Virus record (IMG/VR): IMGVR_UViG_2740892322_000001
Location: 1-19,665 of that record
Strand: one strand, 5' to 3'
DNA from: a virus
Lineage: Duplodnaviria > Heunggongvirae > Uroviricota > Caudoviricetes
DNA length: 19,665 nt
Positions 5,061 through 16,115 of this stretch are shown here, piece by piece. A program made the translations under genes and the position numbers. Position 1 is the stretch's first letter. The number at the start of each line of letters is the position of its first letter. The notes beneath the pieces were generated by a model. It had not been told where the DNA came from and ran no database searches. It saw only the letters and a program-made list of their open reading frames with translations.

Positions 5061-5132
5061 CCGTTTAACTCCGTGGTTAATGGGTGCAACTATTTTCTGT
5101 TGGGCAGTGCATGAGACGCTATTTGACCTGGC

Positions 5133-5151
5133 TGGTCAGTGGATGAAACAA
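5133..5151 (-). promoter_or_regulatory. possible late promoter activator site upstream of FI (imperfect dyad TGGT-N11-ACAA; minus strand reads TGTTGT...)
   Basis: Dyad centred about 82 nt upstream of the FI ATG. Shares the TGTTGT half-site with the dyad upstream of V. P2 late promoters are recalled to carry a TGT-N12-ACA Ogr site near -55; the match here is imperfect. Confidence 0.25.
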
Positions 5152-5186
5152 CAGATAAAGAAAAGGCGGGCAATCAGCCCGCCCGT
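5151..5186 (-). terminator. rho-independent terminator downstream of the cargo gene, insulating it from the FI late operon
   Basis: Perfect 7-bp GC stem GGCGGGC / GCCCGCC (5165-5171, 5177-5183) with loop AATCA. On the minus strand it is followed by TTTTCTTTATC. Confidence 0.7.
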
Positions 5187-5494
5187 CCTGATTTGTACTC
5201 GCTCAGTTTCCAACTGACAATTTACGTAGCCAAAACGCTATCAGCTCTGACAGCCAGCTTTGAGCGAGTCGAAAAAGTTCATACCTTTCTGCTGGTGAAA
5301 GTTTAACTAACAGTTCAACCTATCAATTAATTGATGAACAGGTTGAGGCGTTTTTAATATCTCTGCGTCATCTGAGACGATTTTGCGCTACAGGATTTAC
5401 GGCTTATCTGGGGGCATTCTTGAGCCCTGACTCCTCTGAAAACATAATTAGGCCATACCTGTGACCTGCTCTTCGTTGGTAAGGTTAGCGAATA

Positions 5495-6604
5495 TTAATC
5501 TGAGTCCATTTTCCCAAACTCTGTCAGGCCGAAAACGGAGCTACCAGAAACATGAGCTTGTAAGCCCGCTTCCTGCATGTCACTTAATTCAACTTCTTGG
5601 CTATCCTCTAATCCGATAGAGAACATGGGATAGGCCCAGTTCCAATTCGGATCAGGAACCAAACTATTATTCTCTATCTTGAAAAAGCTGACCATGAGAT
5701 GATGCCTTCCCTGTATCGCCTCTTCATCATTGATGTTGACCAGTACACCAAAGTGCTTGTAGCCGGCTTGTCCATTCTCGAACATTTTTATCTTGGTGCC
5801 GTTTCTGAACATCCAAAAAGAATGATTTCCAGTGGAATCAGCGACCTGCAAGTTATCTTCGTCAATTTCCCAATTAAGATATTGTTTGATATCAGACTTT
5901 GGTTTGAGTTTTTCGTCATTACTAAACCATTGTATTGCCGGAAGTGGAAGGTGAAGACCTTCCGGCTGGGGAGGCTGACCTGCAGCAATGGAATGCATGA
6001 TCTCTGTCATTGATGGAAGCCCCATCAAATGCCATACATCATGGATATCCTTTTTAAGTATAAGAAGCCCTTTGGATACACCATCCGCGTAAGTTGACTT
6101 TAAGCGGACTAGTATGTCCTTGTTACCATCTTTGTCGAGGTCTTCAATGTTTACTGAAGAAGCCACAACCTCGTCGTCCCCTGCGTCTGGGATGATTGCC
6201 CAATACCCAATATCGTAGAATCCAGGTCTGCCAACCACCTTATCTATCAAACTCTGTCCAGAGGGCTCGAAGACCATCAGGAAACGGCTAAGGGCACCAT
6301 TTGTGCTCACAGTTCTTCCGTAGACTACAACGGAGTTTGAGGTGCTTAGATCGAGAGACTCGCTAGCCACTGAGTCAAACGCCACTGAGTCCAAATGTGT
6401 GGCAAGCTGCTGCTGGATGCACTCCCGAGCCATTTCAACTAATTTTTCGCGAACATCAGCAGATCGTATTGGCTGTGAAGTGAAATGGAAAAGCCCTACT
6501 GTAGCCGCTATGCCTATTATTCCCGAAATAACGGTACTTAGAACCTGCTCCTTTACCACTTTCACAACTTTCATCAATAGCTTCTTCAACTTCACTTCAG
6601 GCAC
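5495..6604 (-). CDS. hypothetical membrane-anchored protein, cargo gene at the Z/fun-equivalent locus; candidate anti-phage or superinfection-exclusion function
   Basis: 369 aa ORF from GTG 6602-6604. A more likely start is ATG 6572-6574 (MKVVKVVKEQ..., 359 aa) with a GAAG-type SD. Hydrophobic segment LSTVISGIIGIAATVGLFHF near the N-terminus. AT-rich relative to flanking late genes. No recognisable family by eye. Confidence 0.7.
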   Translation of the reverse strand: MPEVKLKKLLMKVVKVVKEQVLSTVISGIIGIAATVGLFHFTSQPIRSADVREKLVEMARECIQQQLATHLDSVAFDSVASESLDLSTSNSVVVYGRTVSTNGALSRFLMVFEPSGQSLIDKVVGRPGFYDIGYWAIIPDAGDDEVVASSVNIEDLDKDGNKDILVRLKSTYADGVSKGLLILKKDIHDVWHLMGLPSMTEIMHSIAAGQPPQPEGLHLPLPAIQWFSNDEKLKPKSDIKQYLNWEIDEDNLQVADSTGNHSFWMFRNGTKIKMFENGQAGYKHFGVLVNINDEEAIQGRHHLMVSFFKIENNSLVPDPNWNWAYPMFSIGLEDSQEVELSDMQEAGLQAHVSGSSVFGLTEFGKMDSD

Positions 6605-6902
6605 CTAAATACTATTAAACTTGTCATGGGAAAATCCGATTATTATTGTAGAGAACAACAAAAACTGGCCTCGATTTTAGAGTTTTTCCAGTATCTATTT
6701 TCCGACTCGTTCGGCGGTAATCCACCGTTATATTCATGAGGCCGGGGTGCACTATAATATTCAACTATATACTCTGTTTGTAGTGGCACATTAAATTTGG
6801 TGACAGATATGCATCACGTCCGCTCCTAGCACAGAGCGGACAGTCAGATTAGGTTTTACTCTGTGCCATAGATGAGTAATCTCACACCAGAGCTAATACG
6901 AT

Positions 6903-7481
6903 TTATTGCGGCATTTCAGGCCATTCTATATCCGGAGCATTTTCCGGCTGAACGCGATTAAGTAGCACACGGTATTTTTTCCAGTGTGTCAGGCTTAACT
7001 TTTCTTCCTCGGTAGCCATATCTAAATCGACAGCATCCTGCAGCATGGCAATGATTTCACCTGCATATGCAATCTGCTCTTTCTTCTGAGACTCAGCCGC
7101 TCTGACAAGTGCATCACGCTCTGCATTCTCATCATTCACCCACGCATTTCCGTTCCATTTCTGATAATCCCCCTCCGGGGAAATGGCTGTCACGTCTGGA
7201 GGTAATGCGCCAAGTTCAGAAATATAAATGGCTGCTCCCGTTTTCGTTTCGTAGACAGTCTTTCCGCGATGATCTTCCATCAACTCCCATTTCATTTCAT
7301 CTGCATTGAAAACGGCTGCATAACCAGCAGGAATATCAGGTGGTGCAATATCTGTACTGTTTGCAGGCAGGCCAGTATACGGCGGAATATATGCATCACT
7401 TTCGCCAATAAACTCATTGGTTCCATCAAGTAAATTGAAAACGCGGATAGTTTGTGCTTCTGCACTCATTCTGAAAGCCAT
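6903..7481 (-). CDS. G: tail fibre assembly chaperone (gpG / Tfa-like)
   Basis: 192 aa ORF immediately downstream of H with overlapping stop/start at 7481, as in the P2 H-G pair. P2 G recalled as 175 aa, so this is a variant chaperone matched to the variant H. Confidence 0.8.
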
Positions 7482-10099
7482 TATGCAAGCCTCACAATAT
7501 AGTTAAATGCGATGTTTTTGACGGTGTTTTCGGTATTGCCAGTAGCATTTACGGTAATGGAATGCCCGTGTGAGCCAATAGCAACAGTGTGTGAATGTGC
7601 ACCAATACCAACAGTATGGTTATGTGCTCCAATGTCGACTGTATGTGCATGATTGCCTGATGAACTTGTAGTCGTAGCACCTTTATCACTTCGCGGAACA
7701 CCATAATCTGCACCGCCTGATTGCACGCTCACAGCAAAACCGACGGTATGTGTATGATTGCCAGAAGTATTGGTTGATTTTGTGCCGTGGTTAAACGTAC
7801 TGACTGTTTTTGTCCCGTAATCAAATGAACTGGTCGTTTTCGTTCCTAAGTCCGTATTTGACGCACTGGCGCTGTGAGTATGCGATTTAATCCCGTCCTG
7901 TTCCTGTGACAATACGGCACGCCCACTGGCGGGTTTGCCCTTGATTGTCCAGCCGCGCATATCTGGAATAACACCAGAAGGATAGGCAATAGCCAGTTTC
8001 GGATATGCTGCCTTATCAAACGTCTGTCCCTGCATGATTGCATAGCCTGCAGGCGGTGTATCTGATGGCCATGGCAGCGGAACACCTGGCGGAAATACTT
8101 CAATATTTGCCGAGCCGTCAAATTTCACGCCGTTAATTGTCCTTGCCGTTTTCAGCTTTGTTGCTGTAGCCGCATTGCCGGACAGTTCGCCTGAAAGACC
8201 ACCGCTGAATGTCTGTTTCGCCGCCCATGTCTGAGCTTCGTCGATAATTGGCACACGTCTTGTCGTGATCGTGCGGCTTCCCGGATTTCCTGAAATACGC
8301 ACCATAAAAAAGCGGTAATTCGCTTTACTTACAGTGCTGCGCCATACATGCATTGAGCGCCCCGTACCGGAATCATCACTCGGACCAACTGCGATGTTTA
8401 TCAGGTTGCCATCAATGACGCCCCAGTCCATACCGTCGGGAATGTTGGTCATGTTATCAAGCCGAACGGTTATCAGACTGCCCGGCACAAAGTCGTGGGT
8501 CTGCCAGTCCAGGCTGGTGAGCTTTGCCACTGCACCGCCGATACCCAGATTCAGGGGAAGTGAATACGAGGTGTAGACTTCCCGCCATTCGCTCCACGAG
8601 CTGCCGGTATAGACGCGCTCAAACGTGCGACCTTTAAGGGTTGCACCTGTTCCGGCAGTTGTATAACGCTGCCATACGTTAACACCATCAAAGCGCCTCA
8701 ACACTTCCAGAATACCGAGGACTGTCACGCCGTTTCCGTCCAGTATTGGACCGTTGGTCGCTTTACCTGTAACGCTGTAAATACCTGGTGAAGTCACATC
8801 ATTCAAATCCCCGTCGTAATAACGACTCTCTGACTGATGACCAACTCTTAACCACGGTTCCCACTGCGGATTTGATGCATCCCAGCTTGCCGCAAGGCAG
8901 CGGACGTACATATTTCCACGGCGAGTGGTATAACGTTGCGTTCTTCCATAATTCCCGCCTTCGAGGATCTCAAGCGTCCCCTGAGCAAAGCCGCCTTCCT
9001 CTGGATAATTGCGTTCATATGAAGCTATAGCCGAGCTACTGTTACGCCATAAACCAAGATGCTCGGCGGCTCCAAGCGTATTCAGGTCTATAGTCGTACT
9101 CAAAGGGCGGGTCGCTGATTGAGTGTGACGCCATACGCCCCACGGACCATCAGTGCCATTCCACTTATTGGCGAGTTTACGCATGTATACATTGCCGTCT
9201 CTTGTGGTAAAGCGTTGCGTACCTGCAAAATTGCCGGCAGCAAAAACCTCAAGCACACCGACAGCATTATCTTCCGGGAAATTTTTCTCCAGTGTTGCGT
9301 TGGTGGATGTTGCTTTAGACCAGATACCTGAATAAGCCTTAACAGGACCAAACGTATTCAGATCAGCATCAACCGGCATTTCGCCATTGTTTTTCATAAA
9401 CGTCAGGCTGGTAACGCCAACATTGTCCAGAAAAGCTGATTTATCCTGGATATCTGCACCGTTCTGATTTTTCGCCAGACGTGAATTTGCGTTGTCATTC
9501 GCAGCCTTGACCGCTTTTGGCGTTGCCGCCAGTGACTCACTGGTGCTGTTTGTTGCACTGCTTAACTGAGTAAAACCTTTCTCTGTCAGCGTGGCGTCAG
9601 GATGGCGGCGGGACTGCTCATGCTCTGCGATTTTGTCATCGACGTAATCCTGCGTCGCCATCACTGTGCTGGCATCAATACTCAGCTCAACGGACGCCAC
9701 GTTACTGAGAATAATAACCATGCGGCAGGTCTGCGCACGTCCGGAGCCTTCAGCCAGTTCTGGCTTATAGCTTTCTGCCATGTTGGATACCGCAATCAGT
9801 GTTCCGGCATCATCATACAGACCAAGCTCACGCATCCAGAAGCCGCCCACTTCTGGCGGAACAACCAGTTCAGCCACGATATAGTTTTTATTCTTGTTAT
9901 CCACACTGACTTTATTCAGAGCGTGACGCCAGACTTCATGCACCAGTTTCGTCTGACCGGCATCCGGCACCGGCAATTGGCCATTACCGTCACCCACAGC
10001 CATTGCAGACAGGTTTACTTTTTTCCCGCCGGGAACAGTAGCGGCTGCCAGCTTCGCGGCTCCGGCAGTAGTGATAACGGTTTTAAATTTCGTGCTCAT
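7481..10099 (-). CDS. H: tail fibre protein (gpH-like), mosaic: P2-H-like N-terminus, divergent repeat-containing distal region, His-x-His-rich C-terminus
   Basis: 872 aa (P2 H recalled as 669 aa). N-terminal ~200 aa [20 protein letters not shown]...[20 protein letters not shown] matches P2 H. C-terminus [36 protein letters not shown]...[11 protein letters not shown]. Confidence 0.85.
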
Positions 10100-10109
10100 T
10101 GTTTCTCAC

Positions 10110-10640
10110 TTATCCGGGATAAACAGTAATAACATCACCATCACAGACCACACCGCCTGTATACAGATAGCCGGGAATGTCCTGGATAATGTTCAGACCG
10201 ATAAGGTGGCGACTTGCGGGTTTGGCATCGGCAATCAGCCGTTCCATTTCCAGATACATCTCCTCCGTGATGCCGCTTTCCAGCACACCGATATCAAGGC
10301 GAAAGGTTCCGGGCGGGTCGTTTGTCTCCCACCATTCCTTTACGTTAATGAGATAGCCGAGCGGCTCCACCACACGCCGGATTGCGCCGATAGTGCCTTT
10401 ATGACAGTGGATGAAATAGGCATCGCGGATAACGGCGCGTTTTGTCGCTTCCGGCCACTTTTCATCCCACCTGTCGACCGAAAACGCCCACGCCAGCCAC
10501 GGCAGCAGATTTGCCGGGCAGGTGTCCGGGTTCCACAGCTCACGAATACTGACCGGCGTTTTTTCAATTTCCGCACAGGCTTTTGCGGCGGCGACCTCAA
10601 GCGGTGATGAGCCGGTCGGCAGCAGGCGCGAATCACTCAT
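10110..10640 (-). CDS. I: baseplate assembly protein (P2 gpI-like)
   Basis: 176 aa, same length as P2 I; overlaps the J stop by 8 nt. Confidence 0.85.
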   Translation of the reverse strand: MSDSRLLPTGSSPLEVAAAKACAEIEKTPVSIRELWNPDTCPANLLPWLAWAFSVDRWDEKWPEATKRAVIRDAYFIHCHKGTIGAIRRVVEPLGYLINVKEWWETNDPPGTFRLDIGVLESGITEEMYLEMERLIADAKPASRHLIGLNIIQDIPGYLYTGGVVCDGDVITVYPG

Positions 10641-11545: not shown

Positions 11546-11893
11546 TCAACTCACAGGGATGGTTAACGAAAGTGGCTGGCCGGTGTCGTTGTGCTGGCCG
11601 GTTAACGTGACCGTCATTCGCCCGTCAAAACTGCGCTCAGTGGTGACGGATGACAGGGTGACGCGGGGTTCCCATTTCAGCACCGCCATGTAACAGGCGA
11701 CCTTAATCTGCAACTCAAGCGCCGGGGTCTGCGGCTGGTCAATCATTGACGCCAGCAACGAGCCGTAATCACGACGCATCACCCGTGAGCCGACCGGTGT
11801 GCGCAGGATATCGCCGATACTCTGGCTGATATGCTCAAGGTCAGTGACAGTCAGGCCATCACTGCGATTCATTCCGAGATAACGCGCTGTCAT
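11546..11893 (-). CDS. W: baseplate wedge protein (P2 gpW-like)
   Basis: 115 aa, same length as P2 W; start overlaps the V stop by 4 nt. Confidence 0.85.
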   Translation of the reverse strand: MTARYLGMNRSDGLTVTDLEHISQSIGDILRTPVGSRVMRRDYGSLLASMIDQPQTPALELQIKVACYMAVLKWEPRVTLSSVTTERSFDGRMTVTLTGQHNDTGQPLSLTIPVS

Positions 11894-12525
11894 AAAGGAC
11901 TCCCGGTTGTGCCGCCGCTGTCGCCGGGGTGTTTATGGGTATGCAGTACCTTACCGTTTGATGAGAGTTCACCGCCGGTGTGTTCAATGTTGCCGCGCAT
12001 CGTCCCGCCCTTCTGCACTTCCAGCGTGCCGGTGATCAGCTTGTTTGTGCAGACCACCTCCGGCGTGTCCAGAGTGATGCGGGTTGATGCTTTCACCATG
12101 ACCACCGGCACCGTGGCAGTAACAGAATCAGAAGCCGTCACGCTGGCCGTTTTAATTCCGCTTACCGTAAGCGCACTGGTTTCGGGTTCATACTCAATCA
12201 CCGCCCCGTCAGGGAAACGGATATGCAGGGCATCCGCCGACGCAGACGGCGCAGGGTTATCGCCGGAATAAATCCCCGGCAGAACGAACGCCGTGTCGAG
12301 TTCACCGCCCACGGCCAGAATCAGCACCTGTTCCCCCACGGAAGGTGCCCACCATGTGCGCGAACGTCCGGCGCGATGGGTCAGCCACTGAAGCCAGTCG
12401 GTGCACATGCCGCCGGTCTGCACACGGCAGCGACCGGCGTTAAGGTCGGTTTCAACGATAATGCCGGTACGAATCATGTTGCGCAGTGCGCGCGCGAGTT
12501 CCTGAATATTTGCGAGAGTGTCCAT
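11890..12525 (-). CDS. V: baseplate spike / assembly protein (P2 gpV-like)
   Basis: Track ORF 11890..12543 begins at TTG. The likely true start is ATG 12523-12525 (MDTLANIQELARALRNM..., 211 aa), matching the recalled P2 V N-terminus and length. Confidence 0.85.
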   Translation of the reverse strand: MDTLANIQELARALRNMIRTGIIVETDLNAGRCRVQTGGMCTDWLQWLTHRAGRSRTWWAPSVGEQVLILAVGGELDTAFVLPGIYSGDNPAPSASADALHIRFPDGAVIEYEPETSALTVSGIKTASVTASDSVTATVPVVMVKASTRITLDTPEVVCTNKLITGTLEVQKGGTMRGNIEHTGGELSSNGKVLHTHKHPGDSGGTTGSPL

Positions 12526-12572
12526 GCATGTGAGATTGCACAATATATAAAAGTTATGCTATCTGGATTCAT

Positions 12573-12591
12573 TTGTAGAACCACCAGACAA
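12573..12591. promoter_or_regulatory. perfect dyad TTGT-N11-ACAA between divergent V and the plus-strand cargo gene; candidate late promoter activator site for V and/or operator for the cargo gene
   Basis: ttgtagaaccaccagacaa is symmetric. Centre about 57 nt upstream of the V ATG and 18-36 nt upstream of the cargo ATG. Resembles but does not exactly match the recalled P2 late promoter TGT-N12-ACA element. Confidence 0.3.
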
Positions 12592-12608
12592 CATTCAAGG
12601 AGAGCGTA

Positions 12609-13394
12609 ATGGTCAGCTATAATGTGACTAATGTGTGGGAGCTAATCGTTTTGTATCTTTTGGTCTTTGCAGTATTAGCATTTTTTAGCTTTGGTAAAAG
12701 TAACCTTATGAGGCTTATTGCACATTATTTCAAATTTGGATATTCAGACAAAAAATTAAAAAGACTGGACCGCGAGTGGCGCGACATTCAACTATTTAAA
12801 ATACTTAACGGAATCAATGTATCAGGCATCGAAGATGTGAGAATGATACAGCAGGGGCTGATTGATGGAAAACTAAAAACATCGGATTTTTTCCTTACTC
12901 GCTTCTGGGGAGACATAACAGAACCGCCATGCATCACAAAAACAATGAGTGCAGTCCTGGCCGGAATTCTTTATATTATCTTCGCATGTTGCATACACAA
13001 CGAGCAATCTGCCATAGTAGAGGATGCCATAGCCATACCATATAAAAATATGATGTACCATGTTTATAATGACAAGGTTCTTTTGTTCTCCGACAATAAA
13101 ACAGATAAGTTCTATAAAGCTTTTAGCATTGCCGATTGCAAGAGACTGCAGAACACTTTTGTAACAGACACACTTCCTGCAATCGCCTGCAATAAGCTCT
13201 TACAGCTAAACGAGGAGGACTCCGAATGGTTAAGTCAGGAGATTAAAGATAATAACAGCCACAGAAAAACATTATTAATAATATCCCTAATCTATTTCAT
13301 TTCAGGTCTATTTATATTCCTGTCATACACAAAATTCCTTTACGCCAATAAGAAGGTTTTAGAATACAAAGCATCAAATAAAAACCACTCATAA
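12609..13394 (+). CDS. hypothetical integral membrane protein (three predicted TM helices), cargo gene at the S/V junction (P2 orf30 position)
   Basis: 261 aa ORF with strong SD AAGGAG 6 nt before the ATG. Very AT-rich, Lys/Asn/Ile/Phe-rich. Hydrophobic segments ELIVLYLLVFAVLAFFSF, MSAVLAGILYIIFACCI and LLIISLIYFISGLFIFLSY. Opposite strand to all flanking late genes. Confidence 0.7.
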   Translation: MVSYNVTNVWELIVLYLLVFAVLAFFSFGKSNLMRLIAHYFKFGYSDKKLKRLDREWRDIQLFKILNGINVSGIEDVRMIQQGLIDGKLKTSDFFLTRFWGDITEPPCITKTMSAVLAGILYIIFACCIHNEQSAIVEDAIAIPYKNMMYHVYNDKVLLFSDNKTDKFYKAFSIADCKRLQNTFVTDTLPAIACNKLLQLNEEDSEWLSQEIKDNNSHRKTLLIISLIYFISGLFIFLSYTKFLYANKKVLEYKASNKNHS

Positions 13395-13463
13395 ACCTCT
13401 AAACATTGCGACCAGCACGGCCGCTCAATGTTTAATTGCGCATCAGCCTCTGCCTGGATAAAA

Positions 13464-13916
13464 CTAACGCTCAAGGTGAGCCAGGATAATCTCTTCAATC
13501 ATCTGCACATCCTCACCGGTAAAGCCGAGCAGAGGACGCGCCGGATAATCAGTTTTCTTACCGTCTTTCCGGGTTTCTTCCGACAGACCGAACTGATGCA
13601 CACTGGCAATTTTCGGCGACTTCCCGCCGTAAAACTCCATTGATGCCTGTTCCGGGCTGGCGCGGATATGCAAAAAACGACTGGTGATAAGTTTCGCAAA
13701 CATTTTTCGCTTAACACGACCGGTCTTTTTTCTGGCGCTCTGCTGCTGGCGTGGCACGTAGGGTGTGCCGTCCGGGGCTTTCTGTGCCATCACCCGACGC
13801 TGCTGACTCTGACGCAGACGTTTCGCCAGTTCGGCGCTCAGTCGCCGACGCCCTGACGGTGACAGCGATTCAGTCAGTCCGGTCAGCCGGTCTTCAAAAC
13901 GCTTAAACTCATTCAT
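13464..13916 (-). CDS. S: tail completion protein (P2 gpS-like)
   Basis: 150 aa, same length as P2 S; overlaps the R stop. Confidence 0.85.
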   Translation of the reverse strand: MNEFKRFEDRLTGLTESLSPSGRRRLSAELAKRLRQSQQRRVMAQKAPDGTPYVPRQQQSARKKTGRVKRKMFAKLITSRFLHIRASPEQASMEFYGGKSPKIASVHQFGLSEETRKDGKKTDYPARPLLGFTGEDVQMIEEIILAHLER

Positions 13917-14376: not shown

Positions 14377-14629
14377 CGTTTTCGTCCTGACAGTGTTTAA
14401 TCATTTTTACCTGGCTGGCACAGCGTGCCAGCGCGTTCTCAAGCTGCCGGATATCAGCACTTAAATCGCCGTTCGTCTGCGGGTCACTGCCCGGCATCGG
14501 GCAAAGGCTCACTTTCGGGCAGGCGTTGGCGACAATCACTGGCGTCGGTGCAGGCCGGACGCTGGTGCAACCGGCGCACAACATCAGGCAGGTCAGCGCC
14601 GTACCAGCGGCGAAAATCTTCGTTTTCAT
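14339..14629 (-). CDS. lysC: outer-membrane spanin lipoprotein (P2 LysC / Rz1-like), starting inside lysB in another frame and overlapping R
   Basis: ATG 14627-14629 with GAGG SD gives a 96 aa product MKTKIFAAGTALTCLMLCAGC... with a lipoprotein-type signal and Cys. Same length as P2 LysC. Starts inside lysB and extends into R. Confidence 0.7.
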   Translation of the reverse strand: MKTKIFAAGTALTCLMLCAGCTSVRPAPTPVIVANACPKVSLCPMPGSDPQTNGDLSADIRQLENALARCASQVKMIKHCQDENDAQTRQPAQGAD

Positions 14630-14909
14630 TGAGTAACCTCGTGATGGTTTTCTCGCGCTGTGCTTCACGCTTCGCGGCGTTCTCCAGTTCCTGACGCAGT
14701 ACCACCTGCGCCAGCTCGTTTTTGTCTGCTCTGGTGAGGGCAACATGAAGCTGATTTTTCAGCATGGTGATAGTCGTCTGCTGCCCGCTGGCGACGTTGT
14801 TCGCCCTGTCCAGCGAGGCGCGCAGGCTGGCATTTTTATGTTTCACCAGAAACAGCCCCGCCACCGCCAGCGATAACAACACAACCAGTACAATCATCAG
14901 CTTTGACAT
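14484..14909 (-). CDS. lysB: inner-membrane spanin (P2 LysB / Rz-like)
   Basis: 141 aa with N-terminal TM MIVLVVLLSLAVAGLFLV followed by a coiled-coil-like charged region. Same length as P2 LysB. Confidence 0.8.
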   Translation of the reverse strand: MSKLMIVLVVLLSLAVAGLFLVKHKNASLRASLDRANNVASGQQTTITMLKNQLHVALTRADKNELAQVVLRQELENAAKREAQREKTITRLLNENEDFRRWYGADLPDVVRRLHQRPACTDASDCRQRLPESEPLPDAGQ

Positions 14910-15322
14910 GGTTCCCGCCCCTCAAAACGCTGACGGCAGGCCGTACGTATCAGCCGGAAGAACACCGACGCCACGAGGTAAATCAGCGCAGTAAAAATCC
15001 ACCCGGCAGCGACCAGCGAGATAAACGTCGCCACCATCACCACCAGAGCCGCCGCCCGTCTGCGCCACGGCACCGGCTGCAAAAACAGCGACGTGACAAT
15101 CTTCACGGCCAGCGATTCCGGCGGCAGCTCCCGCCCGTAGCGTTCCAGCACATACTCCGTGGCATACACGCCGACACCACCGGCAACCACACAGATAACC
15201 GTCGCCAGAATCGCCCAGGTGGCGACAAAACTGACGGCCACGCTCTGCGGGTAAATCAGGGACAGTGCCAGCATCAGCGCCAGCGACACGTTCAGCATCA
15301 GTGAAAGGGATAATTTCTTCAT
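14897..15322 (-). CDS. lysA: lysis timing / antiholin-like membrane protein (P2 LysA-like)
   Basis: 141 aa with multiple hydrophobic segments; same length and position as P2 LysA. Confidence 0.75.
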   Translation of the reverse strand: MKKLSLSLMLNVSLALMLALSLIYPQSVAVSFVATWAILATVICVVAGGVGVYATEYVLERYGRELPPESLAVKIVTSLFLQPVPWRRRAAALVVMVATFISLVAAGWIFTALIYLVASVFFRLIRTACRQRFEGREPCQS

Positions 15323-15336
15323 GGTGTTTACTCCGT

Positions 15337-15834
15337 TTAAGCCGGTACGCCGCCGGCGGTACGCCAGACGGTGACCAGTTTTTCCAGTGAATGCTCACGC
15401 TGACCGTAACCGGCACCCGGCAGGGACGCCCAGATATTGCGACAGCGTGAAATGGCGCGCTCAATGCGTCCCGCCCGGATGTCATCCAGTGCACCGCGTT
15501 CGCGGATCAACTGAATGGCGAGCCTGTCCTGTGACAACGGACTGAAATCCGGCAGGGCAAGCTGTTTGCGGTAGTGCGGCCAGAACAGGTAAAGCTGCTG
15601 ATAGCGACCGGAGGCCGTGGATTTTTCACCGCGACGGTTAAACACCTTCGCCGGTCGGCCATGCGCGAACGGGTGGTCACTGTAGTCGGTGAAAATTTCC
15701 GGCTTTCCGTCCAGTCCGGTGACTATCACGTCATAGCCCCGGTTTTTCGTCAGCGGATGATTCGCCGTCCCTTCGGACACGGCCAGCATGTCGAGAAAGG
15801 CGGCGATATTCTGATGCGTGTTAATTACCGGCAT
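15337..15834 (-). CDS. K: endolysin (P2 gpK-like; clearly resembles lambda R lytic transglycosylase)
   Basis: 165 aa. Motifs FLDMLAVSEGT, GYDVIV, FTDYSDHP, SGRYQ, IWASLPGAGYGQ match the recalled lambda R / P2 K family. Start overlaps the Y stop. Confidence 0.85.
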   Translation of the reverse strand: MPVINTHQNIAAFLDMLAVSEGTANHPLTKNRGYDVIVTGLDGKPEIFTDYSDHPFAHGRPAKVFNRRGEKSTASGRYQQLYLFWPHYRKQLALPDFSPLSQDRLAIQLIRERGALDDIRAGRIERAISRCRNIWASLPGAGYGQREHSLEKLVTVWRTAGGVPA

Positions 15835-16115
15835 TACGGTTTCCCCCTGCCCTTAAAGCGGCGCTGAATGGCAATCTCAATCACCTGATAACCGGCGATA
15901 CCCAGCATGGAACCGATGCCGCACACCGCAGGCAGTGACAGGTCAGGAAACTGCACCAGAACAACACCGGCAACCATCGAGACAAAACCGCCGAGCAACA
16001 TGCGCCCGATAAACAGACGCGGGGTGATGGGTTCACCACCGGCAAGCACCTTGCCGACAACAATCAGCACCCCAATCATGAAAAGCGACAGGACGCTTTT
16101 TTCTTCTGCTGTCAT
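15834..16115 (-). CDS. Y: holin (P2 gpY-like)
   Basis: 93 aa with hydrophobic TM segments and charged C-terminus; same length and position as P2 Y. Confidence 0.85.
   Translation of the reverse strand: MTAEEKSVLSLFMIGVLIVVGKVLAGGEPITPRLFIGRMLLGGFVSMVAGVVLVQFPDLSLPAVCGIGSMLGIAGYQVIEIAIQRRFKGRGKP

What the first reader, a model, noticed from the sequence alone, without database searches (positions are those of the whole stretch)
12544..13463. AT-rich island on the opposite strand at the S/V junction encoding a three-helix membrane protein
This is the only plus-strand gene in about 20 kb of minus-strand late genes. It sits where P2 carries the AT-rich orf30, which I recall as having no assigned function. 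It is very AT-rich, has a strong SD, and encodes three hydrophobic helices separated by ~80-residue Lys/Asn/Asp-rich loops. Small multi-TM prophage proteins of this kind often mediate superinfection exclusion or abortive infection, but nothing in the sequence proves that. A divergent dyad (12573-12591) lies in its leader.
Basis: partly seen in the sequence, partly recalled or inferred. Interest (0 to 1): 0.65.

Follow-up and report, generated by a model that had tools for sequence, protein, structure and literature searches.

The report
P2 orf30 orthologue: prophage membrane-protein cassette
This AT-rich gene is the E. coli prophage version of phage P2's long-known but still unexplained gene orf30; it encodes an inner-membrane protein that the phage does not need to grow and that probably acts in the host cell, possibly to keep out other phages, though nobody has tested this.

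Summary
Window 12609-13394 (+) is a 261-aa ORF at 36% GC, set in 54% GC late genes between gpV and gpS. It has an AAGGAG Shine-Dalgarno sequence and three transmembrane helices separated by loops of 81 and 90 residues.

It is the orthologue of P2 orf30 (81% aa identity, annotated "nonessential", PHROG 2407). So it is a known gene of unknown function.

The "dyad in the leader" is not an orf30 operator. It is the activator site of the divergent late promoter PV, one base different from the site annotated in the P2 record.

New here:
- **Family.** Orf30 is a remote branch of Pfam DUF6216.
- **Position.** Relatives at only 19-35% identity sit at the same V/S position, same orientation and about 34% GC, in P2-like prophages of Escherichia, Yersinia and Enterobacter. 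Others sit at int-att or P4-satellite edges and stay intact in decayed prophages.
- **Neighbouring cargo.** The S/V junction is a small cargo hotspot whose other occupants include defence-candidate genes.
- **P2 parallels.** orf30 shares strand, GC content and layout with old, tin and fun.
- **Silencing.** The BL21 DUF6216 gene at this position is reported to be H-NS-silenced.

Best reading: an accessory membrane protein that acts in the lysogen, plausibly in phage exclusion. No mechanism is shown.

The parts
11890..12525 (-). gpV (baseplate spike), first gene of the V late operon; left flank of the cassette
   Evidence: 97% aa identity to P2 gpV. The ORF list shows a TTG start at 12543, but the ATG at 12525 matches the P2 annotation.
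12526..12608 (.). 83-bp V/orf30 divergent intergenic region. It holds the PV late promoter (read on the minus strand) and the orf30 leader and presumed weak promoter (plus strand).
   Evidence: Same 83-bp spacing as in P2. No sigma-70 consensus promoter on the plus strand; the best match is 8/12. The ACACAAC/ACAAC core is conserved in loci whose Orf30 relatives are only 20-35% identical.
12567..12594 (-).
   Evidence: The reverse complement, ATGTTGTCTGGTGGTTCTACAAATGAAT, differs at 1 of 28 nt from the P2 feature at 10239-10266, 'activator binding site; activation of pV promoter'. It shares the TGTTGT core with the pO/pP and pF sites.
12597..12602 (+). Shine-Dalgarno sequence AAGGAG, 6 nt upstream of the ATG
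   Evidence: Read directly from the sequence.
12609..13394 (+). orf30 orthologue CDS, 261 aa plus stop; inner-membrane protein in a remote branch of DUF6216
12636..12695 (+). TM1 (aa ~10-29), preceded by a short uncharged N-terminus predicted to be periplasmic
   Evidence: KD maximum 2.41; helix 7-28 in the AF2 model. Variable among alleles: 16/29 sites, dN/dS about 1.9 on few sites.
12696..12938 (+). Loop 1 (aa 30-110): predicted cytoplasmic helical domain, the most conserved part. Motif D-x-QLF[KR]-x2-NGINV-x4-DA-x2-I-x3-I-x2-G-x-L, followed by FFG-x-G.
   Evidence: Alignments A1 and A3. Its length is fixed at 80-81 aa in 32/32 relatives, and the positive-inside rule is satisfied in 30/32. 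dN/dS 0.27; pLDDT 84-94.
12939..13001 (+). TM2 (aa ~111-131)
   Evidence: KD maximum 2.03; helix 109-134. 12/21 sites vary among alleles.
13002..13268 (+). Loop 2 (aa 132-220): predicted periplasmic domain. Four beta-strands (141-173) followed by two short helices that carry the conserved pair C177/C194, a presumed disulfide.
   Evidence: AF2 secondary structure. There are exactly two Cys in this loop in 32/32 relatives. C194 is invariant and C177 is at least 90% conserved. This is the region that aligns with BL21-type DUF6216, whose model has the same order of elements.
13269..13391 (+). TM3 (aa ~221-241) plus a basic C-terminal tail (aa 242-261, 5 K/R), predicted cytoplasmic
   Evidence: KD maximum 2.37; continuous helix 202-260; conserved N-x-K...K motif.
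13401..13433 (.). Hairpin AAACATTG...CAATGTTT lying between the converging orf30 and gpS. It corresponds to P2's 'putative rho-independent terminator for O operon'.
   Evidence: P2 feature at 9397-9433. The fold is not better than shuffled sequence (z -0.5 to -0.7) and there is no T-run, so terminator function is annotated but not shown.
13464..13916 (-). gpS (tail completion), last gene of the O late operon; right flank of the cassette
   Evidence: 96.7% aa identity to P2 gpS.

Best explanation
The region is the P2 orf30 cassette. It is a self-contained accessory ('moron'-type) transcription unit of about 930 bp. It fills the whole gpS/gpV intergenic space of a P2-like prophage, convergent with the O late operon and divergent from the late promoter PV.

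It encodes a three-pass inner-membrane protein with these predicted parts:
- a short periplasmic N-terminus;
- a conserved 81-aa helical domain in the cytoplasm;
- a roughly 90-aa beta-sheet-plus-helix domain in the periplasm, with a presumed disulfide;
- a cytoplasmic basic tail.

The protein belongs to a remote branch of the uncharacterised DUF6216 superfamily. That superfamily is tied to this exact position in P2/186-like prophages of Enterobacterales.

The protein is not needed to build or release virions. I infer that it is made from the prophage at a low level, probably kept down by H-NS, and acts in the lysogen's envelope. The mechanism I think most likely is phage exclusion at the inner membrane. 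In that model the fast-evolving TM and periplasmic parts meet an incoming phage's ejection machinery, or the host membrane component it uses, and either block genome entry or trigger membrane failure.

Shown here: identity, anatomy, family, synteny, distribution, evolutionary rates.

Inferred: topology, expression regime, action in the lysogen.

Speculative: the anti-phage mechanism itself.

I put about 0.8 on 'lysogen-acting accessory membrane protein' and about 0.4 on 'anti-phage'. The score given is for the full statement.
For: **Identity**
- 81% aa identity to P2 Orf30, annotated 'nonessential' in AF063097; PHROG 2407.

**Dispensable for the phage**
- Among 78 IMG/VR loci whose gpV is at least 95% identical, 55 have an empty 69-bp junction, 17 carry the orf30 cassette and 6 carry other cargo.
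- In complete E. coli genomes, 459 of 1571 with a match at this junction carry the cassette.

**Same design as the proven P2 anti-phage genes**
- orf30, fun(Z), tin and old are the four complement-strand 'nonessential' genes in the P2 record. Their GC is 34.0, 32.8, 32.9 and 34.8%, against 50.2% for the genome.
- fun(Z) has the identical layout: terminator, then the gene, then a late-promoter activator site.

**Hotspot behaviour**
- Alternative S/V cargo includes a RelA_SpoT protein (PADLOC PDC-S33, E 1e-16), an AAA protein (PDC-S59, E 1.5e-31) and an AAA+TIR protein.
- In Burkholderia P2-likes this position holds other genes (PMC3091744 and PMC13366799).

**Family distribution**
- Relatives at 19-35% identity lie at V/S in the same orientation and at about 34% GC in loci L008, L010, L094, L096, L105 and L106.
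- Others lie directly after int at the att edge of a 186-like Pantoea prophage, and at the primase-att edge of a P4-like satellite remnant next to an AAA_15/21+HNH pair. Moura de Sousa et al. 2026 (bioRxiv 10.64898/2026.02.27.708500) list both kinds of site as minor defence hotspots.

**Retained intact in decayed elements**
- E. coli B P2 remnant.
- BL21 Eco1 remnant.
- Pantoea locus with only an int fragment left.
- Enterobacter remnant.
- Leclercia P4 remnant.
- 20 of 21 orf30 alleles are intact.

**Evolution**
- dN/dS is 0.47, against 0.08-0.16 for V, S, W and R. dS is also about 2x higher.
- Changes concentrate in TM1, TM2 and the beta-sheet part of loop 2. Loop 1 is conserved.
- Across phages, Orf30 is 31-35% identical where J, V and R are 72-84% and W is 60-76%.

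**Topology**
- Positive-inside rule satisfied in 30/32 relatives, and exactly two conserved Cys in loop 2 in 32/32.

**Silencing**
- In BL21-AI the DUF6216 gene of the P2-like prophage is one of three H-NS ChIP peaks and is up-regulated in the hns stpA double deletion (bioRxiv 10.64898/2026.09.05.749240).
- I located that gene between S and V on the opposite strand.
Against: - There is no experimental phenotype for orf30. Decades of P2 genetics mapped the exclusion of T-even phages, lambda and T5 to tin, old and fun, and none to orf30 (P2 record notes; my own knowledge of the P2 literature).
- There is no hit to any PADLOC, Pfam or NCBIfam model.
- Overall dN/dS is below 1, so positive selection is not demonstrated. 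The values above 1 for TM1 and TM2 rest on fewer than 20 substitutions.
- The H-NS data concern a very remote relative: pairwise BLAST is not significant, and hhalign gives 82% probability over the C-terminal half only. They do not concern this gene.
- No recognisable sigma-70 promoter lies upstream, so expression in the lysogen is assumed.
- Location in a hotspot fits any accessory function, not only defence. Two of the five alternative cargo types have no defence hit.
Confidence: 0.4

Rival explanations
1. A lysogenic-conversion factor that is not defensive. The membrane protein would change an envelope property of the lysogen, such as stress tolerance, transport, surface polysaccharide handling, or resistance to colicins or tailocins. 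It would be kept because it benefits the host, not because it stops phages.
For: Everything that shows 'accessory, acts in the lysogen, retained in decayed prophages' fits this reading equally well. There is no hit to any defence model. Classical P2 genetics has not attached any exclusion phenotype to orf30. Rousset et al. and Egorov & Atkinson note that P2 hotspots also carry non-defence cargo such as cytolethal distending toxin (quoted).
Against: The family occurs in animal-, plant- and environment-associated Enterobacterales (Escherichia, Yersinia, Pantoea, Leclercia, Enterobacter). That argues against a niche-specific virulence role. The high allelic diversity (18 distinct proteins among 20 intact alleles with near-identical flanks), and the co-location with defence-type cargo, are more typical of conflict genes.
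Confidence: 0.3
2. A non-essential helper in the phage life cycle. It would be an inner-membrane factor that tunes P2's own infection, for example genome ejection or entry, tail or baseplate assembly at the membrane, lysis timing, or exclusion of the P4 satellite. It would be expressed during lytic growth.
For: It is embedded among tail and lysis genes. In all six longer P2-like contigs examined it lies directly next to, and divergent from, PV, even where other cargo separates it from S. That suggests some coupling to the late promoter region. P2 has other non-essential membrane proteins that tune lysis (LysA, LysB, LysC).
Against: It is on the opposite strand to every late operon. The PV activator site lies within about 15-42 nt of its start codon, so late activation would more likely occlude orf30 transcription than drive it (inference). 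It is absent from about 70% of near-identical phages, including viable ones such as Wphi. Relatives sit outside any phage morphogenesis context, at the int-att edge, in a P4 remnant and in prophage-free remnants.
Confidence: 0.12
3. A largely silent passenger. The AT-rich DNA would be kept because of its position: it supplies the PV promoter and the O-operon terminator and nucleates H-NS. The protein itself would have little or no function.
For: The cassette carries its own version of the PV promoter region and of the putative O-operon terminator, so precise loss requires replacing the whole intergenic region. H-NS binding is reported at the analogous BL21 gene. The promoter signals are weak.
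Against: The ORF is intact in 20 of 21 alleles, and dN/dS is 0.47, well below 1. Motifs, the length of loop 1 and the Cys pair are conserved down to about 20% identity. AF2 gives a confident fold from the family alignment (pLDDT 82). The gene stays intact where neighbouring phage genes are pseudogenes.
Confidence: 0.08

Closest known systems
Bacteriophage P2 Orf30 (AAD03281.1; PHROG 2407)
   Same: Orthologue. 261/261 aa align without gaps at 81% identity. Same position between gpS and gpV, same opposite orientation, same 83-bp spacing to the gpV ATG, same PV activator site (27/28 nt), same low GC.
   Different: 49 amino-acid differences, mostly in TM1, TM2 and the first half of loop 2. The flanking genes are 96-99% identical, so this is a distinct allele of a diversifying gene. 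Closer alleles (95-96%) exist in Yersinia pestis-plating phages vB_YpM_46 and VB-YPM-4 and in E. coli 4/0.
Pfam DUF6216 (PF19723), e.g. WP_000115390.1 in the BL21 retron-Eco1 P2/186-like prophage remnant
   Same: Same genomic slot (between S and V, opposite strand) and a similar length (268 aa). Same three-TM plan. The C-terminal module has the same order of elements: TM, four beta-strands, two Cys-bearing helices, long TM helix, basic tail. hhalign gives 82% probability, E 1e-5, over 114 columns. 9 of 24 Orf30 relatives hit PF19723, best E 8.7e-7.
   Different: The window protein itself does not hit PF19723 at E <= 1, and pairwise BLAST is not significant. The N-terminal half differs: Orf30 has an 81-aa conserved cytoplasmic domain where the BL21 type has a loop of about 35-40 aa. 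DUF6216 has no known function either.
P2 lysogenic-conversion / exclusion genes old, tin and fun(Z)
   Same: Non-essential, on the strand opposite to the neighbouring operons, 33-35% GC in a 50% GC genome, and located at the sites of horizontally acquired genes in P2-like phages. fun(Z) shares the layout of terminator, gene and late-promoter activator site.
   Different: No sequence or domain similarity. Old is an ABC-ATPase/TOPRIM nuclease, and tin and fun are soluble proteins with demonstrated exclusion phenotypes. Orf30 is a membrane protein with no phenotype on record.
Prophage inner-membrane superinfection-exclusion proteins (e.g. T4 Imm, P22 SieA, HK97 gp15; recalled from my own knowledge, not tested here)
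   Same: A small multi-pass inner-membrane protein encoded as a single gene by a temperate phage and dispensable for growth.
   Different: No detectable sequence, profile or fold similarity to anything in PADLOC, the PDB or BFVD. Orf30 is larger and has two folded extramembrane domains. There is no evidence for a block to DNA entry.

Membership tests
P2 Orf30 orthologous group (PHROG 2407) | Full-length sequence similarity to P2 Orf30 | tested here: met
   BLASTP gives 81% identity over 261/261 aa, E 1e-161. phrog_2407 hits at E 2.6e-137 over 1-261 of 261.
P2 Orf30 orthologous group (PHROG 2407) | Located between gpS and gpV, transcribed opposite to both | tested here: met
   V at 11890-12525 (-), orf30 at 12609-13394 (+), S at 13464-13916 (-). 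Same arrangement as AF063097.
Pfam DUF6216 (PF19723) | Score at or above the Pfam gathering threshold (27.3 bits) | tested here: not met
   The window protein gives no Pfam hit at E <= 1. P0006, the closest distant relative, scores 17.2 bits.
Pfam DUF6216 (PF19723) | Homology detectable through intermediates or profiles | tested here: met
   9 of 24 relatives hit PF19723, best E 8.7e-7. P0040 carries a precomputed PF19723 hit and is found directly by phmmer with the window protein, E 9.7e-6. hhalign of A3 against the BL21-type alignment gives 82% probability, E 1.1e-5, over the C-terminal 114 columns only.
Pfam DUF6216 (PF19723) | Shared architecture: three TM helices; a periplasmic four-strand sheet; two Cys-bearing helices | tested here: met
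   The AF2 secondary-structure strings of both proteins have the same order of elements from TM2 onwards. The Cys pair is conserved in both alignments.
P2-type lysogenic-conversion / anti-phage cargo (old, tin, fun) | Non-essential, opposite-strand, AT-rich gene at a variable site of P2-like phages | tested here: met
   GC is 34.0% for orf30 against 32.8-34.8% for fun, tin and old. All are on the complement strand and annotated nonessential. Site occupancy varies: 55 empty, 17 orf30, 6 other.
P2-type lysogenic-conversion / anti-phage cargo (old, tin, fun) | Expressed in the lysogen and excludes a heterologous phage | not testable with these tools
   I found no expression or plating data for orf30. 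The only indirect data are the H-NS ChIP and RNA-seq results for a remote relative in BL21.
Known or candidate defence-system proteins (PADLOC-DB v2) | Match to a defence-protein HMM | tested here: not met
   The window protein, the BL21 DUF6216 protein, P0006 and P0024 give no hits at E <= 0.1-1. P0044 gives only a spurious hit at E 0.003 (Csx16).
Two-component membrane abortive-infection systems (sensor plus TM effector, e.g. RexAB-like) | A partner gene in the same cassette | tested here: not met
   The cassette holds one gene. The only other ORF of at least 60 aa inside it (12873-13061, minus strand, 62 aa) is antisense within orf30. Relatives at int-att and P4 edges also stand alone.
Holins / lysis regulators | Small (about 70-150 aa), inside the lysis cassette, co-transcribed with the late genes | tested here: not met
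   261 aa with two folded loops, on the opposite strand, and outside the Y-K-lysA-lysB-lysC block at 14484-16115.

The most novel reading that the evidence does not exclude
Orf30/DUF6216 is a previously unrecognised family of single-gene, inner-membrane anti-phage determinants (superinfection exclusion or membrane-level abortive infection). Under this reading it is normally muted by H-NS, and the gpS/gpV junction is a fourth defence hotspot of P2-like prophages, alongside old/tin, Z/fun and the int/cI-side sites. The family would be the hotspot's ancestral, position-locked and rapidly diversifying occupant across Enterobacterales. The periplasmic disulfide domain and the TM helices would set specificity, and the conserved cytoplasmic domain would act as effector or anchor.
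Probability: 0.35. Interest if true: 0.6.

Novelty: already known. Interest (0 to 1): 0.4.

Why it matters
orf30 is the last of P2's four AT-rich, opposite-strand, non-essential genes without a function. The other three (old, tin, fun) founded the study of prophage-encoded phage exclusion. About 8% of complete E. coli genomes (459 of 5426) carry this cassette, and both P2-like remnants of the laboratory B/BL21 lineage carry a family member.

If the protein turns out to be an envelope-level defence, three things follow:
- a new single-gene family would be added to defence catalogues, which currently miss it;
- a fourth P2 hotspot would be defined;
- it would be another example of immunity hidden by H-NS silencing.

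If it is not defensive, it is still a widespread, conserved prophage membrane protein with a fold not seen in the PDB. Either way the question is now sharply testable with a few clones and one deletion.

Tried and rejected
1. **Domain searches of the window protein.** Pfam, NCBIfam and PADLOC gave nothing. PHROGs returned only the 'unknown function' family 2407.

2. **Word-indexed protein search.** It found only four clusters at 77% identity or more. Distant relatives appeared only with the exhaustive HMMER search.

3. **Structure comparison of the pLDDT-82 model.**
   - BFVD gave nothing.
   - afdb50 was not available.
   - A PDB sequence-profile search gave one chance hit, E 0.25.

4. **The dyad as an orf30 operator or RNA structure.** Rejected. 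It is the annotated PV activator site, and the leader does not fold better than shuffled sequence (z 0.0).

5. **Intrinsic terminator.** The hairpin annotated in P2 is present but is not better than shuffled sequence and lacks a T-run. The consensus scan flagged a different weak site inside the 3' end of gpS.

6. **A sigma-70 promoter for orf30.** No site reached 9/12 on the plus strand. Only 8/12 matches were found, and they are not conserved among distant loci.

7. **H-NS high-affinity motif scan.** 45 matches against 40 expected, with no enrichment in the island, so it is uninformative.

8. **Known RNA families and insertion footprints.** No Rfam hit. No direct repeats flank the cassette.

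9. **Linking the BL21 'DUF6216' gene directly to orf30 by BLAST.** This failed. Only profile-profile and architecture comparisons connect them. The BL21-type protein has no tblastn match in the 50,697 isolated phage genomes.

10. **A family-wide genome scan with alignment A1.** The subfamily scan returned only 4 loci.

11. **Supplementary tables of the H-NS preprint.** These might have shown whether the orf30-type gene of E. coli B is also H-NS-bound, but they are not held.
Full report
**1. What is there**

The window is the late-gene half of a P2-like prophage. It is 99.8-100% identical to an intact prophage integrated between yegQ/ogrK and yegR in the uropathogenic E. coli strain 4/0. Minus-strand genes tile it in the order T, E, FII, FI, a Z/fun-site ORF, G, H, I, J, W, V, then S, R, lysB, lysA, K, Y, X, L, M, N, O.

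Between gpV (11890-12525, minus) and gpS (13464-13916, minus) lies one plus-strand ORF, 12609-13394. It has an ATG start, encodes 261 aa, and has AAGGAG 6 nt upstream. Its GC content is 36.4% against 54.4% for the rest of the window. The drop is sharp at both gene boundaries.

Kyte-Doolittle analysis gives three hydrophobic segments at aa ~10-29, 111-131 and 221-241.

RefSeq also annotates a 55-aa plus-strand hypothetical ORF at about 5139-5306. 'Only plus-strand gene' should therefore read 'only substantial one'.

**2. Identity**

The DNA from 12400 to 13600 matches P2 at 92%, and P2-like phages that plate on Yersinia pestis at 97%. The protein is 81% identical to P2 Orf30 over its whole length without gaps, and it hits PHROG 2407, 'unknown function', at E 2.6e-137. 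The P2 record labels orf30 'nonessential'.

In the literature I could search, orf30 appears only as 'unknown'. It is also listed as one of three sites (the TO region, Z/fun and orf30) where P2-like phages carry horizontally acquired genes (PMC3091744, PMC2771037, PMC6823313, PMC13366799). The recent P2 defence-hotspot papers do not discuss it. It is therefore a known gene with an unknown function.

**3. The dyad and the regulatory surroundings**

The P2 record annotates a 28-bp 'activator binding site; activation of pV promoter' at 10239-10266. It shares the TGTTGT core with the annotated pO/pP and pF sites. The right half (ACACAAC) is the best-conserved element of the V/orf30 intergenic region in loci whose Orf30 relatives are only 20-35% identical. 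The dyad is thus the Ogr/delta box of the divergent late promoter PV. It is not an orf30 operator, and the leader has no significant RNA structure.

Comparison with the 'empty' Wphi junction shows that everything from the base after the gpV ATG to the gpS stop is replaced. The cassette of about 930 bp stands in for 66-69 bp and carries its own version of PV.

No consensus sigma-70 promoter precedes orf30; the best match is 8/12. The hairpin that P2 annotates as the O-operon terminator is present at 13401-13433, but it is thermodynamically unremarkable. There are no Rfam hits and no flanking direct repeats.

**4. The protein family**

The word-indexed search found only close alleles. The exhaustive HMMER search found 39 hits. 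About 25 of them are full-length proteins of 250-270 aa at 22-35% identity.

The alignments show four conserved features:
- The three TM segments are conserved.
- Loop 1 has a fixed length of 80-81 aa in 32 of 32 sequences. It carries the strongest motif: D-x-QLF[KR]-x2-NGINV-x4-DA-x2-I-x3-I-x2-G-x-L, followed by FFG-x-G.
- Loop 2 holds exactly two cysteines in all 32 sequences. C194 is invariant and C177 is at least 90% conserved.
- The C-terminal tail is basic.

K+R counts in the TM-flanking segments favour loop 1 and the C-tail as cytoplasmic in 30 of 32 sequences. The inferred topology is therefore N-terminus out, loop 1 in, loop 2 out with a probable periplasmic disulfide, and C-terminus in.

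**5. Link to DUF6216**

The window protein does not hit PF19723. However, 9 of 24 relatives do, with a best E of 8.7e-7, and P0040 carries a precomputed hit.

A 2026 preprint (bioRxiv 10.64898/2026.09.05.749240) reports that H-NS ChIP peaks in the retron-Eco1 P2-like prophage of BL21-AI fall on the RT gene, the Ndt gene and a 'DUF6216' gene. All three are up-regulated in the hns stpA double deletion.

I located that gene (WP_000115390.1, 268 aa). It lies between the S and V homologues on the opposite strand, which is the orf30 slot. Pairwise BLAST to Orf30 is not significant. Profile-profile alignment of the two families gives 82% probability, E 1e-5, over loop 2, the Cys pair, TM3 and the tail. 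An AF2 model of the BL21 type shows the same order of elements from TM2 onward.

I conclude that Orf30 is a remote branch of a DUF6216 superfamily. The two share the C-terminal module and differ in the N-terminal half. The H-NS result bears on a positional and remote homologue, not on this gene.

**6. Where family members live**

At the V/S junction of P2-like prophages, always adjacent to and divergent from V:
- Relatives at 35% and 31% identity (L008, L010) are at 34% GC against 57-58% in the flanks. In the same loci J, V and R are 72-84% identical to the window's and W is 60-76%.
- A 22%-identity subfamily sits there in a Yersinia frederiksenii P2-like prophage, and in a decayed Enterobacter prophage.
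- Two further subfamilies sit there with extra genes between them and S: a DUF4062 protein in one, and an ORF6N protein hitting PADLOC PDC-S05 plus two small ORFs in the other.

Elsewhere:
- Pantoea relatives lie directly after the integrase at the att edge of a 186-like prophage. In another Pantoea strain the gene sits at the same chromosomal site with only an integrase fragment left.
- A Leclercia relative lies at the primase-att edge of a P4-like satellite remnant (Psu, a Pox_D5 fragment), beside an AAA_15/21 ATPase plus HNH pair.

Moura de Sousa et al. 2026 list int-att in P2 and primase-att in P4 as minor defence hotspots.

E. coli B carries two family members, one in each of its two P2-like remnants. 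Both are intact while neighbouring phage genes are pseudogenes.

**7. The S/V junction as a cargo site**

Among 78 IMG/VR loci whose gpV is at least 95% identical to the window's:
- 55 have an empty 69-bp junction;
- 17 carry the orf30 cassette;
- 6 carry something else.

The other cargo types are:
- a 251-aa protein with a CxxC...H...CxxC pattern and no database hit;
- a 247-aa unknown protein;
- a 366-aa RelA_SpoT protein (PADLOC PDC-S33);
- a 414-aa AAA protein (PDC-S59);
- a 508-aa AAA+TIR protein.

In complete E. coli genomes, 459 of 5426 carry the orf30 cassette, and about 1100 more have a junction without it. Twenty-one isolated phage genomes carry it, always annotated as hypothetical.

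**8. Evolutionary rates**

| Comparison (window vs P2) | dN/dS | dS |
|---|---|---|
| orf30 | 0.47 | 0.20 |
| V, S, W, R | 0.08-0.16 | 0.05-0.11 |

The higher dS suggests that cassette alleles are older than, or are exchanged independently of, their flanks. Replacements concentrate in TM1, TM2 and the beta-sheet half of loop 2, while loop 1 and the tail are conserved. Twenty of 21 alleles are intact, and they encode 18 distinct proteins. The gene is under purifying selection overall, so it is a real protein. The constraint is relaxed or diversifying in the membrane and periplasmic parts. Positive selection is not demonstrated.

**9. Parallels within P2**

In the P2 record the complement-strand, 'nonessential' genes are orf30, fun(Z), tin and old. 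Their GC contents are 34.0, 32.8, 32.9 and 34.8%, in a 50.2% GC genome. The latter three are the classical exclusion genes against T5, the T-even phages and lambda. fun(Z) has the same layout as orf30: the upstream operon's terminator, then the gene, then the next late promoter's activator site.

**10. Interpretation**

Firmly supported: this is an accessory cassette, dispensable for the phage, that encodes a real, conserved three-pass inner-membrane protein. [quoted passage not shown] All of this points to a function in the lysogen (about 0.8).

The most likely function is phage exclusion at the envelope (about 0.4). It rests on hotspot co-location, the design shared with old, tin and fun, the allelic diversity and the membrane location. 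Against it stand the absence of any phenotype in decades of P2 work, of any defence-model hit, and of any informative fold match. It is also unknown whether and when the gene is expressed.

The rivals are a non-defensive envelope or fitness factor (0.3), a non-essential phage-cycle helper (0.12), and a near-silent passenger maintained for its promoter, terminator or H-NS context (0.08).

**11. Verdict**

The finding is real and accurately described, but it is the known P2 orf30. The dyad was misassigned. The defence idea is reasonable, somewhat strengthened by context, and untested.

The useful additions are the DUF6216 superfamily link, the position-locked yet fast-diverging synteny across Enterobacterales, the topology and disulfide prediction, and the view of S/V as a small hotspot. 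Interest is moderate at 0.4. It would rise if the exclusion phenotype were demonstrated.

Noticed in passing
window 5061-6902 (ORF 5495-6604, minus strand): The Z/fun hotspot of this prophage (between gpG and gpFI) holds a 368-aa ORF. GC here is 41-47%. The ORF has no Pfam or PADLOC hit and sits next to an annotated IS3 transposase fragment. The same cargo occurs in only 52 of 5426 complete E. coli genomes. It is an uncharacterised occupant of a proven defence hotspot.
   Followed up: partly
window 5139-5306 (+), by mapping from L099 12740-12907: RefSeq annotates a 55-aa plus-strand hypothetical protein (WP_023908562.1) just downstream of gpFI. So orf30 is not strictly the only plus-strand gene call in the window.
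   Followed up: no
window 6800-8000 (gpG and the 3' part of gpH): GC falls to 43-47% across the tail-fibre assembly gene and the C-terminal part of the tail-fibre gene. That is consistent with a swapped host-range module.
   Followed up: no
window 13464-13916 (gpS) compared with L008, L010, L094, L017, L048, L077: gpS is dimorphic. It is only 46-57% identical in loci where gpV, gpR and gpJ are 72-98% identical. This includes loci with gpV at 97-98% identity (L017, L048, L077), all of which carry non-orf30 cargo. Cassette exchange at the S/V junction seems sometimes to take gpS along with it.
   Followed up: partly
L017:3168-3923, L038:3174-3917, L078:2776-3876, L077:2650-3894, L037:2392-3918: There are five alternative cargo genes at the S/V junction of near-identical P2-like phages: a 251-aa CxxC...H...CxxC protein with no database hit; a 247-aa unknown protein; a RelA_SpoT protein (PADLOC PDC-S33); an AAA protein (PDC-S59); and an AAA+TIR protein. 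All are at 34-39% GC. This site is not described as a defence hotspot in the P2 hotspot papers I read.
   Followed up: partly
L006 (E. coli B, 20209-20994) and L098 (BL21, 26316-27122): The E. coli B/BL21 lineage carries two members of the Orf30/DUF6216 superfamily, one in each of its two decayed P2-like prophages. Both are intact while neighbouring S, FII, D, portal, CII and gpA genes are pseudogenes.
   Followed up: partly
L097 3051-8750 (Leclercia adecarboxylata): A P4-like satellite remnant (Psu, a primase fragment) carries an AAA_15/AAA_21 ATPase plus an HNH protein in its hotspot (a Septu- or Gabija-like pair by domain content; not classified here). It also has an Orf30-family gene at its primase-side edge.
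   Followed up: no
L007 (Wphi S/V junction) versus window 12526-13463: The 'empty' 66-69-bp junction has its own TTGTGCC box overlapping the gpS stop codon, followed by a GC-rich hairpin just before the gpV ATG. So the PV promoter region exists in two unrelated sequence versions, depending on whether the cassette is present.
   Followed up: partly
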